Source: a virus (taxonomy: Duplodnaviria; Heunggongvirae; Uroviricota; Caudoviricetes). From it: a stretch of DNA of 50,212 nucleotides. Made by a program: the position numbers. The stretch lies in IMG/VR virus record IMGVR_UViG_2874945390_000009; one strand, written 5' to 3'. Shown here one piece after another: positions 30,001 to 33,000 of the stretch (positions are counted from its first letter, which is position 1; each line of letters starts with the position of its first letter).

Positions 30001-33000
30001 CCCTTTCACAATCAGTTCATAGTTTTGTGTCATTGAATTACTCTCCCCGCGCAGCCTTACGCTTGTCTTCTCTTATTTTGAAATACAGGTTAGTCAGATA
30101 TGTCAGCAGCCCAAACAGCAGACTCCCCAGCACGCCTATTGCCGCCCACTGAGACGGGGAAACCCTGTCCAGCAACTGCAGGAACCAGTAGCCCGTTCCC
30201 ACCGCTGACGTGGTGTATGACACACCTGTTGTGATTTTTTCCATCTGGTCCATACCCCGTCTCCCGTTATCCGGAAGCTGACAACAATAAAAAAGCCACC
30301 AGTTAACTACTGATGGCTCTGATAACTCATGCAAGCGTCTCAGACGATCCACTGACACTACCGGTGAGTTTAACGATACCTTCCATTTGACTGGCTCACT
30401 TTTTATGATGATGCCGGTGCATTTATCTCCAGCACCAGACTTTCTATCTCAACGCCATACGTTGCATTTTTGGTAATATCCGTCAGCGTCAGTGCATTTA
30501 GTCCCACTGCCAGACTGTCTTTTATGGCCTGGAATGCCGGGCCAGTACGATGACGTAGTATCACTCCGGCTCAGTTGCACCACTGACCACCACATCACCT
30601 TCTGCTGCAATCGCCTGCATCAGGGTATAAGGGGTTATGGCCACCGGACTACCAAACGGCTGCCAGCCCTCTTTCAGTTTATGTGTCAGCTTTTCCGCAA
30701 GATCTGACGGCGGCGCCGCCCTGACAACATCATAGTGTTTAAATGCCATGGTTCTTTCCACCATCTGAAAAATAATTCTTTAAAATACCTGACATGTAAT
30801 ACAGAAAAAACACAAAACCATACCTTAAATAAAAACCTGATTATCAAGCAGATATGCATGGATAAACTACAAGACGAGATATAAACCACCCTGCATTTAA
30901 ATAAACAATAAACAACATCAGAAAAATAATTCTGCTCTATGGTTTACATTCAAAAATATCATTTATACTTTTCAGAACATCACCAGCAAGGCATAAACAA
31001 GGAAACTAAATGAAGTGGATTGTGATTGATACAGTTATCCAGCCATCATGCGGAATATCTTTTTCAGTCATATGGAGTAAAATAAAATTAATAATCTGGT
31101 ATCAATCGGATGCTTTCTTACCTCCTGAAAGTATATTTACACTGACTCACACAGGCATCATGCTCAATAACAAAGTGCTACCTGTAACCATTTACAACGT
31201 AGTACCATTCAATAAAACATTCTGGAATTTAATCAAAAACAGCCAGGAATGCCCTACAAATACAGATAACGTATTGAATGAATGCTTTAATAACCGTTGC
31301 ACTCTGCAAATATGTCCTTATGGACTAAAACAACAAAGTCCATAAGGAGTTTACTCACATCTGACAAAATCAATATAAACAGCCCCTCCGGAGAGGGGCT
31401 GGAGAGTGGCGCTATGTGCCATTGCATGGTGCCGGGTGCCTCCCGGTGAATTCAGTACCAGCACCTGAATCCGCGATTATCCCATATACCTACTCGCTGA
31501 TTGCCCCTCCGCACAGGGGGATTCACCATGCCAGTTTCTTTTAACAAACTCCCCGCAAACCAGACAACAGTCAACCGCCTGAATTGTGAAGTATTTAAAA
31601 ATTTCTCCCGCTAACTGATACCCGGCTAACAGTCTGGCGTTTTCTTTTTCAGCAACGGGAAAGCAACAACCCTGTTATCGTGTCGTCTGCTCTTCCTGAT
31701 AAGCTAATGGCGGTTTGTGATGGTGGCCCTTGCTGGATTTGAACCAGCGACCTGGCGATTATGAGTCGCTCGCTCTCACCACTGAGCTAAAGGGCCGGGA
31801 GCAGAATAATAACGGTCCGTAATTAATTCCGCAATAAAAAACCCGCTCGGCGACGGGTTGTAGAAACTCTTCTAACGTCAGGCATAAAAAGCCCATCGTT
31901 ATGACGAATTTACCACAGATTCCGGAAAAATCAACCTTGTTACCTAGTTACCTTTTTTAACTGCCGCTCAGCCCATGCTTCTTCAATATCAAACCGGGTC
32001 ACCAGCGCATCATAGAATTTCTTAACTGTTTTTTCCCATGACGCGCGTGTTATCTGGTTTGTCACCTCGCATATAGCATTAAATGCCTCCGTTGATGGTA
32101 GTCTTTCATAGCCACGACCACCACAACGCTGGCAGTCTCTGATAACAGGCATACCACGTTTTACCGACTCTTCACGGTGAATGGCGACACCACGCCCACG
32201 GCAATCCTTACAGGCGGTGGAAACCTCACCCTTTCCGCCACACTCCGGACAGGCAACTTTTACCACCTCCCTGACTTTTTTCCATTCTTCCCAGTAAGAC
32301 GGATACACACCTTTCGTACACTTTGCCCATACCGGCGGCTTACCATCCGGATACTGGACCTTGTTTGTAAAAACTACGCTTTCAATAAATTTTTCCCCAT
32401 AGCAACAAGGGCACTGCTTTTTACTCGCTGCGCTGCGGGCATAATCCTCAAAAGCGTACGAAGCCATAATGCGCATCACTACCGGTTTTATTTCTGCCGG
32501 AAGTTTTCTCAACGCCGCCACACGATCGCACCGACTGAGTGCATAATCTGCCAGTAATTCTGTTGCCCGCGCCCTGTCATTCATACTGATGCCCATTTTC
32601 CCCAGGAACGCAGAAAACCCCATCTCAGCCCGATTCTGTGTCATGCCCTGCGCGGCCATCACATCAGTGATACTCAGCGCATCTTTTGACGTTGAGGCCG
32701 ATGCATCGGTCAGGCCAGGGGATTTTGGGGAGTAGTATTTCGGTAAATCTTCCAGTTTCATTTTTTGACCTGCTCTTCATGCATTATGGGGTAAATCTTC
32801 ACCCCCATACGTCCACCAGATACTGGCTGACCACGAACGATATTGATTTCATCAAACTGCTCATCGTCCATTAACACTCCCGCATGTGTCAGTGCATCCA
32901 GTGGTGCTTTCAGGATATTGTCCAGGTCACGACGGCGCTTATCCGGTGGCTCTGCAATAATCTTTATCGCCAGTCTTCCGGACAGGCTTAATTTCAGTCG

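What the first reader, a model, noticed from the sequence alone, without database searches (positions are those of the whole stretch)
30765..31400. AT-rich antisense moron between Q and the holin
A low-GC segment carries a 111-aa Cys-containing ORF on the strand opposite the late operon, with its own promoter-like elements and flanked by a hairpin. The position (between the late promoter and lysis genes) and composition are typical of acquired cargo; in Stx phages the toxin genes sit between Q and the lysis genes. Function unknown.
Basis: partly seen in the sequence, partly recalled or inferred. Interest (0 to 1): 0.5.

Follow-up and report, generated by a model that had tools for sequence, protein, structure and literature searches.

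The report
Prophage iraL, a known RpoS stabiliser

Summary
A 0.32-GC island (about 30751-31370) carries a 111-aa ORF (31010..31345, +) opposite the minus-strand late operon: Q, tRNA(CAU), STnc100 sRNA, [ORF], DUF1737/nanS remnant, S21-type holin.

The function is known. The ORF matches iraL of uropathogenic E. coli CFT073 (c1429) at 336/336 nt, with 4 SNPs across the 806 nt compared. The published 5'-RACE mRNA start maps to 30977 with 31/32 matches. NCBIfam 'anti-adapter protein IraM' scores 162 bits (cut-off 121). The solved IraM N-domain (8TWD) matches at E=9e-32.

Hryckowian et al. 2014 showed that IraL binds RssB and about doubles the log-phase sigmaS half-life.

The flanking hairpin (31380-31401) is not iraL's. 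It is the terminator of a minus-strand STnc100-family sRNA (132 bits), a backbone element that lies 75 nt downstream of stx2B in the Stx2 prophages checked.

About 26% of complete E. coli genomes carry the cassette.

Smaller new points:
- Sister paralogues occupy the same slot, two of them beside stx2.
- A PhoP-box-like repeat is conserved upstream.
- A C-terminal Cys4 motif is invariant.

Verdict: already known, low interest.

The parts
30751..31370 (.). Low-GC iraL cassette (cargo relative to the lambdoid backbone)
   Evidence: GC is 0.324 against 0.515 and 0.492 in the flanks. Homology to Stx2a phage Lys12581Vzw ends at 30750 and resumes at 31375. That phage has an unrelated 221-bp spacer in the same place.
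31010..31345 (+). iraL coding sequence (111 aa), an RssB anti-adaptor
   Evidence: 336/336 nt and 111/111 aa identical to CFT073 iraL, WP_000871291.1. NCBIfam NF007393 scores 162 bits against a cut-off of 121. PDB 8twd_A (IraM) matches at E=9e-32. dN/dS is 0.10-0.15.
30943..30977 (+). iraL sigma70 promoter: -35 TTTACA (30943-48), -10 TATACT (30964-69), transcription start at 30977
   Evidence: The published 5'-RACE sequence ACATCACCAGCAAGGCATAAACAAGGAAACCA matches 30977-31008 at 31/32. The hexamers were read from the sequence. Their assignment is inferred; the spacer is only 15 nt.
30898..30914 (-). PhoP-box-like direct repeat TGTTTAttgttTATTTA at -79..-63 from the transcription start (candidate regulator site, unproven)
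   Evidence: It is the only match with at most 1 mismatch in the 50-kb window. 4% of shuffles of the AT-rich upstream region do as well. Four paralogue promoters have a match at the same or nearly the same position, one of them perfect.
31315..31348 (+). Perfect 12-bp inverted repeat spanning the iraL stop codon; possible 3' stem-loop of the iraL mRNA
   Evidence: It is absent from the iraM and Stx2c-phage paralogue 3' ends and accounts for the extra QQSP tail.
31371..31560 (-). STnc100-family prophage sRNA gene, convergent with iraL
   Evidence: Rfam RF02076 scores 132.4 bits (gathering 47) over the full model. The same element is present in CFT073, Stx2a and Stx2c prophages.
31380..31401 (-).
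   Evidence: 9-bp stem followed by a U-tract on the minus strand only. It forms the 3' helix of the STnc100 model. It is conserved in a phage that lacks iraL.
31721..31796 (-). tRNA with CAU anticodon in the late leader region
   Evidence: ARAGORN calls it tRNA-Met. PGAP calls the homologue tRNA-Ile.
31840..31934 (-). Candidate late promoter pR' (TTGATT-16-TAAATT, 31934-31907) and tR'-like terminator (31859-31840)
   Evidence: The terminator comes from the scan. The promoter was read from the sequence and is inferred only.
31940..32761 (-). Late antiterminator Q
   Evidence: PF03589 at 6e-55.
30561..30764 (-). DUF1737 ORF, a remnant of the 5' end of a nanS-type esterase gene (likely start at 30749)
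   Evidence: PF08410 at 4e-17. 85% identical to the nanS 5' end of an Stx2a phage. PGAP marks the homologues as truncated.
30038..30253 (-). Class II (P21 S-type) holin, the first lysis gene
   Evidence: PF04971 at 6e-32. Coordinates taken from the PGAP homologue and checked by translation.

Best explanation
The segment is the iraL cassette, a lysogenic-conversion gene (moron) carried in the late region of a lambdoid prophage.

In the lysogen, host sigma70 RNA polymerase starts at 30977 and transcribes iraL on the strand opposite the silent late operon. The 111-aa product is an IraM-type anti-adaptor. Its N-terminal beta-barrel domain docks on the receiver domain of RssB. RssB then cannot hand sigmaS (RpoS) to ClpXP, so sigmaS lives longer and the general stress regulon is raised even in growing cells.

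Shown elsewhere, for a protein identical to this one:
- RssB co-purifies with it.
- It binds only the RssB N-terminal domain in two-hybrid assays.
- The log-phase sigmaS half-life falls from about 5 to about 2.5 min on deletion.
- The transcription start was mapped by 5' RACE.

Shown here:
- Identity of the gene and its promoter.
- Its placement as an insertion between the STnc100 sRNA terminator and the nanS/DUF1737 start.
- Conservation of the RssB-contact residues.

Inferred:
- This copy is expressed.
- Q-dependent late transcription, which must run antisense through iraL, shuts it off during lytic growth.
- A conserved upstream PhoP-like box adds Mg2+/PhoPQ control.
For: Identity:
- The CDS is 336/336 nt identical to CFT073 iraL, with only 4 SNPs in 806 nt, none in the -35 or -10 hexamers.
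- The published 5'-RACE start matches 30977-31008 at 31/32.

Family:
- NF007393 scores 162 bits against a cut-off of 121.
- The IraM crystal chain 8twd_A matches at E=9e-32 over residues 1-78 without gaps.
- All 5 IraM residues that contact the RssB N-domain are identical. 11 of 15 listed contact residues are identical and the other 4 are conservative changes.
- dN/dS is 0.10-0.15.

Function: published deletion, complementation, pull-down and two-hybrid data. Later transcript and protein data show expression in CFT073.

Cargo status:
- GC is 0.32 against about 0.5 in the flanks.
- An 'empty' site exists in an Stx2a phage.
- The same Q-tRNA-iraL-DUF1737-holin order occurs in CFT073, FDAARGOS_536, FDAARGOS_944 and phage record 640R1.
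- 1432 of 5426 complete E. coli genomes hold at least 80% of the segment.
Against: - There are no expression data for this particular window or host.
- Two SNPs relative to CFT073 lie at -1 (30976, A for G) and in the 5' UTR (31007). Their effect is untested, although FDAARGOS_536 carries the same two bases.
- The -35/-10 spacer is only 15 nt.
- No U-tract terminator follows iraL on its own strand, so the mRNA 3' end is unknown.
- The prophage looks degraded: the DnaB-type helicase is split and IS copies are present. This does not by itself affect a moron.
- A structure prediction was too poor to add anything.
Confidence: 0.93

Rival explanations
1. The copy in this window is a silent or decaying passenger. 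The gene is iraL by descent, but it is not expressed here, either through xenogeneic silencing of the AT-rich promoter or because of the -1 and UTR substitutions, and so it has no effect on sigmaS.
For: The upstream region has GC 0.27, which is typical of H-NS targets (general knowledge). Two SNPs lie next to the start site and the SD-ATG spacer. The prophage carries a split helicase and IS elements. The paper itself notes promoter-variant copies of unknown activity.
Against: The ORF is intact and identical to the active allele. The -35 and -10 hexamers are unchanged, unlike phage 640R1, which has TTTATA. The same -1 and UTR bases occur in FDAARGOS_536. Strong purifying selection acts across the family.
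Confidence: 0.05
2. The main role of the segment is at the RNA level. Convergent iraL transcription would act as a cis-antisense brake on read-through of the late operon or on the adjacent STnc100 sRNA, with the protein secondary.
For: iraL is convergent with STnc100 (25-nt gap) and with the late transcript. It has no own U-tract terminator, so read-through into STnc100 antisense is conceivable.
Against: dN/dS of 0.10-0.15 and invariant protein motifs show that selection acts on the protein. Ectopic iraL at attTn7 or on a plasmid restores or raises sigmaS. In E. albertii the paralogue lies on the other side of STnc100, and one lineage lacks it.
Confidence: 0.01
3. The protein acts like its structural relative PmrD, protecting a different response regulator such as PmrA rather than RssB.
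For: The IraM fold resembles PmrD at r.m.s.d. 1 A. Precomputed Pfam hits for family members are PF11183, labelled PmrD.
Against: Direct RssB pull-down and two-hybrid data exist for the identical protein. The RssB-contact residues are conserved. The local Pfam scan gave no PmrD hit, even at E<=10.
Confidence: 0.01

Closest known systems
IraL of uropathogenic E. coli CFT073 (c1429; Hryckowian et al. 2014, PMC4045071)
   Same: The protein and the coding DNA are identical. The promoter and mapped transcription start are the same. The prophage position is the same: Q, tRNAs, STnc100, iraL antisense, DUF1737, holin.
   Different: There are four SNPs outside the CDS. The carrier prophage differs: one tRNA(CAU) instead of Ile/Arg/Arg plus IS200, and the closest matching prophage lies next to a different set of chromosomal genes. 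The paper calls the location the 'potB genomic island' and does not describe the late-operon or sRNA context.
IraM (YcgW) of E. coli K-12, the Mg2+-starvation anti-adaptor; RssB-IraM crystal structure 8TWD
   Same: Same family (NF007393). 61.7% identity with no gaps over 107 aa. The RssB N-domain contact cluster is identical. Both have the invariant C-terminal Cys4 motif and low GC.
   Different: The locus differs: next to e14, with no Q, holin or STnc100 nearby. The upstream region is different. IraM binds both RssB domains and IraL only the N-domain. Contact clusters II and III carry T13S, L75I, H63N and I64V. IraL has a 4-aa tail.
Uncharacterised IraM/IraL paralogues in Stx2 prophages (for example WP_001303568.1 in phages 2851 and 1717; P0005)
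   Same: 74.8-76% identical to IraL. Same antisense slot between the STnc100 terminator and nanS. Conserved promoter block with the PhoP-like box.
   Different: They lie immediately downstream of stx2AB. Their sequence clade is distinct (236 of 5426 genomes for the Stx2c type). No functional study was found.
stx and other morons of the lambdoid late region
   Same: Cargo inserted between Q/tR' and the lysis cassette, with deviating composition, and dispensable for the phage.
   Different: stx is co-oriented with the late transcript and depends largely on Q read-through. iraL is antisense, with its own constitutive-type promoter, so it is expressed in the lysogen rather than at induction.
StxS, the pR'-tR' short RNA of Stx phages (PMC7547250)
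   Same: It is another lambdoid late-region product made during lysogeny that raises RpoS.
   Different: StxS is an sRNA that activates rpoS translation. IraL is a protein that blocks RpoS proteolysis. Whether the pR'-tR' transcript of this window has StxS activity was not tested.

Membership tests
IraM/IraL anti-adaptor family (NCBIfam NF007393) | Profile score above the curated cut-off | tested here: met
   162 bits against a cut-off of 121, over residues 1-110.
IraM/IraL anti-adaptor family (NCBIfam NF007393) | N-terminal domain homologous to the solved IraM beta-barrel that binds RssB | tested here: met
   8twd_A matches at E=9e-32, residues 1-78 aligned without gaps. The de novo model was unusable at pLDDT 39.9.
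IraM/IraL anti-adaptor family (NCBIfam NF007393) | Conservation of the IraM residues that contact RssB (clusters I-III of Brugger et al. 2023) | tested here: met
   Cluster I is 5/5 identical. Cluster II is 3/5, with T13S and L75I. Cluster III plus P66 is 3/5, with H63N and I64V.
IraM/IraL anti-adaptor family (NCBIfam NF007393) | Physical binding to RssB and stabilisation of sigmaS | not testable with these tools
   Shown experimentally for the identical CFT073 protein and transferred here by sequence identity.
IraM/IraL anti-adaptor family (NCBIfam NF007393) | Invariant C-terminal C-x10-C-x4-C-x4-C-P-Y-G motif | tested here: met
   C81, C92, C97, C102, P103, Y104 and G105 are invariant in 13 sequences down to 53% identity. 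Its role is unknown.
iraL allele group (as defined in PMC4045071: at least 95% identity over the whole coding region, distinct from iraM) | At least 95% nucleotide identity to CFT073 iraL, and about 67-71% to iraM | tested here: met
   100% identity to CFT073 iraL. Identity to iraM in E. coli genomes is about 71%.
iraL allele group (as defined in PMC4045071: at least 95% identity over the whole coding region, distinct from iraM) | Conserved promoter and mapped transcription start | tested here: met
   31/32 match to the 5'-RACE sequence. The hexamers are identical to those of CFT073.
PhoP-regulated anti-adaptor genes (iraM, Salmonella rssC/iraP) | PhoP box (T/G)GTTTA-N5-(T/G)GTTTA in the promoter and PhoP-dependent induction | tested here: inconclusive
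   A reverse-oriented 1-mismatch box lies at -79..-63 and is conserved in position in paralogues, one of them perfect. The chance level is 4%, and no binding or expression data exist.
Phage moron (lysogenic-conversion cassette) | Inserted between backbone genes, and absent from otherwise homologous phages | tested here: met
   Breakpoints lie at 30750 and 31375 against the Stx2a phage, which has an unrelated spacer there.
Phage moron (lysogenic-conversion cassette) | Own promoter active in the lysogen | tested here: met
   The promoter and transcription start match the published mapping in lysogenic CFT073. Activity in this host was not measured.
Phage moron (lysogenic-conversion cassette) | Own transcription terminator | tested here: inconclusive
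   On the + strand there is only a stem-loop over the stop codon, with no U-tract. The strong hairpin downstream is oriented for the minus strand.
Phage moron (lysogenic-conversion cassette) | Deviant base composition | tested here: met
   GC 0.324 against 0.507 for the window as a whole.

The most novel reading that the evidence does not exclude
iraL may be one member of a set of paralogous anti-adaptor morons that repeatedly occupy one slot of lambdoid late regions: antisense, usually between the STnc100 sRNA terminator and nanS, and in Stx2c-type phages directly beside the toxin genes.

Their promoters share a reverse PhoP box about 70 bp upstream of the start. If that box is functional, prophages would place RpoS stability under PhoPQ/Mg2+ control during lysogeny. 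Convergent Q-driven late transcription would switch the gene off at induction. The Stx2-linked paralogues would then tie toxin-phage carriage to stress fitness in EHEC. None of this is in the IraL literature that I could find.
Probability: 0.3. Interest if true: 0.45.

Novelty: already known. Interest (0 to 1): 0.15.

Why it matters
IraL is one reason some pathogenic E. coli and Shigella keep RpoS high while growing, so the gene matters for stress resistance and niche adaptation. This was published in 2014, and pipelines already annotate the gene as an IraM-type anti-adapter.

What this re-examination adds is context:
- The gene is a textbook antisense moron in the stx slot of a lambdoid prophage.
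- Sister paralogues sit beside stx2.
- The family promoter contains a conserved PhoP-like box that nobody appears to have tested.

These are modest, testable leads rather than a discovery.

Tried and rejected
- **Pfam scans.** The ORF, K-12 IraM and the Stx2c paralogue gave no hit, even at E<=10. The large database's precomputed table lists PF11183 for the family. The discrepancy is unresolved, and NCBIfam and PDB settled the family instead.
- **AlphaFold2.** A run on a 13-sequence alignment gave pLDDT 39.9. No fold search was attempted on it.
- **Hairpin as the iraL terminator.** Rejected. The U-tract is on the minus strand only, the hairpin is conserved in a phage without iraL, and it is part of a full STnc100 model match.
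- **Remnants of iraL in the Stx2a 'empty' spacer.** None found.
- **Short direct repeats flanking the cassette (D4, D5).** Treated as chance.
- **PhoP box at the -35 position.** Only a single GGTTTA half-site overlaps the -35 region, so this was rejected in favour of the upstream reverse box.
- **Literature searches.** Searches for IraM or IraL together with Stx phages or PhoP found no study of the Stx2-linked paralogues or of PhoP control of iraL.
- **Supplementary files of the IraL paper.** They are not held, so the authors' exact -35/-10 assignment could not be read.

Full report
**What is in the sequence**

The window carries a lambdoid prophage whose late operon runs on the minus strand:
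- Q antiterminator, 32761..31940 (PF03589, 6e-55)
- a tRNA with a CAU anticodon, 31796..31721
- a DUF1737 ORF, 30764..30561
- a P21-type class II holin, 30253..30038 (PF04971)
- a DUF1327/YdfR protein
- a lysozyme

Between the tRNA and DUF1737, GC falls from about 0.5 to 0.30-0.37. The plus strand there carries a 111-aa ORF, 31010..31345.

**Identity**

- The ORF has no hit in the local Pfam copy.
- It scores 162 bits against NCBIfam NF007393, 'anti-adapter protein IraM' (cut-off 121).
- It matches the crystallised N-terminal domain of IraM (8twd_A) at E=9e-32 over residues 1-78 without a gap.
- Phage and genome records that contain the same DNA annotate it as an IraM-type anti-adapter.

The literature search led to Hryckowian et al. 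2014 (PMC4045071), which describes IraL, an IraM paralogue of uropathogenic E. coli CFT073. I fetched the CFT073 prophage at potB. The window ORF is identical to CFT073 iraL (c1429, WP_000871291.1) at 111/111 aa and 336/336 nt. Only four SNPs occur in 806 nt of cassette plus flanks: 30762, 30819, 30976 and 31007.

The paper's 5'-RACE sequence for the iraL mRNA aligns to 30977-31008 with one mismatch. This places the transcription start at 30977, seven bases after a TATACT -10 (30964-30969). A TTTACA lies at 30943-30948. The hexamer assignment is my inference. The 15-nt spacer is short, and a phage record has TTTATA there, probably the '-35 point mutation' the paper mentions.

Identity to K-12 IraM is 61.7%.

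**How it works**

For the identical protein, the paper shows four things:
- It co-purifies with RssB.
- In two-hybrid assays it binds only the RssB N-terminal domain, whereas IraM binds both domains.
- Deleting iraL halves the log-phase sigmaS half-life in CFT073 (about 5 to about 2.5 min) and lowers sigmaS in Shigella sonnei.
- A fragment from -100 to +33 plus the gene complements the deletion and raises sigmaS in K-12.

The RssB-IraM structure paper lists three clusters of contact residues. In IraL, the cluster that contacts the RssB N-domain (I4, I6, W22, K26, I42) is fully conserved. The clusters that contact the C-domain and the linker carry T13S, L75I, H63N and I64V. That pattern agrees with the N-domain-only binding reported.

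Selection is on the protein: dN/dS is 0.10-0.15 among IraL, IraM and a third paralogue.

The best-supported mechanism is that IraL sequesters RssB, sigmaS is not delivered to ClpXP, and the general stress response is raised in the lysogen. Expression in this particular host is inferred, not shown.

**The hairpin and the neighbourhood**

The G+C-rich hairpin at 31380-31401 has a U-tract only on the minus strand. Rfam finds a full-length STnc100 sRNA (RF02076, 132 bits, gathering 47) at 31560..31371 on the minus strand, and the hairpin is its terminal helix.

The same sRNA is present in CFT073 next to iraL. In the Stx2a and Stx2c prophages I checked, it starts 75 nt after stx2B, as also reported in PMC12370729. 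A 2026 preprint relates STnc100 to the PasD prophage sRNAs. The hairpin is therefore backbone and belongs to the late-operon strand.

iraL itself ends in a perfect 12-bp inverted repeat that spans its stop codon (31315-31348). The paralogues lack this repeat, and it explains the extra QQSP tail. No U-tract follows it, so where the iraL mRNA ends is unknown.

Downstream of Q there is a tR'-like terminator (31859-31840) and a plausible pR' (TTGATT-16-TAAATT, 31934-31907; read from the sequence).

**Cargo status**

Against the Stx2a phage Lys12581Vzw, backbone homology covers 30642-30750 (the 5' end of nanS, whose N-terminus is the DUF1737 domain) and resumes at 31375 (STnc100). That phage has an unrelated 221-bp, 49%-GC spacer instead. 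The cassette is thus about 30751-31370 with GC 0.324, an insertion between the sRNA terminator and the nanS-type start codon.

It occurs in the same order in CFT073, FDAARGOS_536, FDAARGOS_944 and four records deposited as phages. At least 80% of it is found in 1432 of 5426 complete E. coli genomes.

The 'moron in the stx slot' reading is right. What differs from stx is the orientation: iraL has its own promoter and faces the late transcript. It is therefore a lysogen-expressed gene that Q-dependent transcription would run over in antisense. That last step is an inference.

**Things that go a little beyond the literature I could find**

1. *Paralogues in the same slot.* A distinct paralogue (107 aa, 74.8% identical to IraL and 65.4% to IraM) sits antisense between stx2B/STnc100 and nanS in Stx2c-type prophages such as 2851 and 1717. 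It is found in 236 of 5426 genomes and 41 phage records. Another (P0005, 76% identical) is in the same place in a further Stx prophage. More distant members lie antisense in the late region upstream of nanS/DUF1737, behind two other Q families: one in E. albertii and one in a draft assembly. One lineage lies elsewhere. I found no paper on these.

2. *A conserved PhoP-like box.* The only match with at most 1 mismatch to the PhoP box in the whole window is TGTTTAttgttTATTTA on the minus strand at 30898-30914, which is -79..-63 from the start. About 4% of shuffles of the AT-rich upstream region do as well. The site lies in the best-conserved block of otherwise divergent paralogue promoters. At the same or nearly the same distance from the ATG, the Stx2c paralogue has a 1-mismatch box, P0005 a perfect one, and two more distant members 2-mismatch boxes. 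iraM is PhoP-controlled. The IraL paper does not address PhoP in its text. This is a lead, not a finding.

3. *An invariant C-terminal motif.* The C-terminal C-x10-C-x4-C-x4-CPYG motif is invariant in 13 family members down to 53% identity. The structural work removed this tail as unstable and less conserved.

**Verdict**

The 'acquired cargo' interpretation is supported. 'Function unknown' is superseded, and the hairpin was attributed to the wrong gene. The feature is an exact copy of a characterised gene, so it is already known and of low interest. The paralogue family, the slot next to STnc100 and stx2, and the candidate PhoP box are the only parts that might repay experiments.

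Noticed in passing
window 31371-31560 (-): A full-length STnc100-family prophage sRNA (Rfam RF02076, 132 bits) is convergent with iraL. It lies 75 nt downstream of stx2B in the Stx2 prophages checked.
   Followed up: partly
L004 5115-5438 (E. coli 7784, Stx2c prophage); L008 3001-3336: Uncharacterised IraM/IraL paralogues (74.8% and 76% identical to IraL) sit antisense between stx2B/STnc100 and nanS. The Stx2c type occurs in 236 of 5426 complete E. coli genomes and in 41 phage records. No functional study was found.
   Followed up: partly
window 30898-30914 (-); same offset in L004, L008, L010, L012: A PhoP-box-like direct repeat in reverse orientation lies about 70 bp upstream of the iraL start. 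Its position is conserved in paralogue promoters, and it is perfect in P0005. PhoP control of iraL appears untested.
   Followed up: partly
window 31250-31342 (IraL residues 81-105): The C-x10-C-x4-C-x4-CPYG motif is invariant across the family, in the tail that the IraM crystal construct removed. It may be a metal site or a stability determinant.
   Followed up: partly
window 31315-31348: A perfect 12-bp inverted repeat spans the iraL stop codon. IraM and the Stx2c paralogue lack it. It creates the QQSP extension and may be the mRNA 3' stem-loop.
   Followed up: partly
window 31721-31796 (-): ARAGORN calls the tRNA with a CAU anticodon Met, but PGAP annotates the homologous gene as tRNA-Ile (lysidine type, like ileZ of Stx phages).
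   Followed up: no
window 37383-37570 (-): C4 antisense RNA (83 bits) and isrK (64 bits) lie side by side, within the coordinates of a long mechanical ORF (36764..38626, minus) that carries Ash and Rha domains. This resembles a P1/P7-type antirepressor immunity module inside a lambdoid prophage.
   Followed up: no
window 33386-34776 (-): The DnaB-type replicative helicase is split into two overlapping ORFs (190 and 273 aa), which indicates a frameshift. The prophage is probably replication-defective.
   Followed up: no
window 42361-43179 (-) and 46858-47676 (+): Two inverted copies of an IS3-family transposase ORF (272 aa each; IS600 in the closest genome) bracket a segment that contains an SPFH/Band 7 gene (44867..45697).
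   Followed up: no
window 29503-30033 (-): The YdfR/DUF1327 ORF is 176 aa here, against about 114 aa in the CFT073 and FDAARGOS_536 homologues. The C-terminal extension is unexplained.
   Followed up: no
IraM/IraL family proteins: The large protein database lists a precomputed Pfam PF11183 hit (labelled PmrD) for every full-length family member. The local Pfam-A hmmscan finds nothing for IraL, IraM or the paralogue, even at E<=10.
   Followed up: partly
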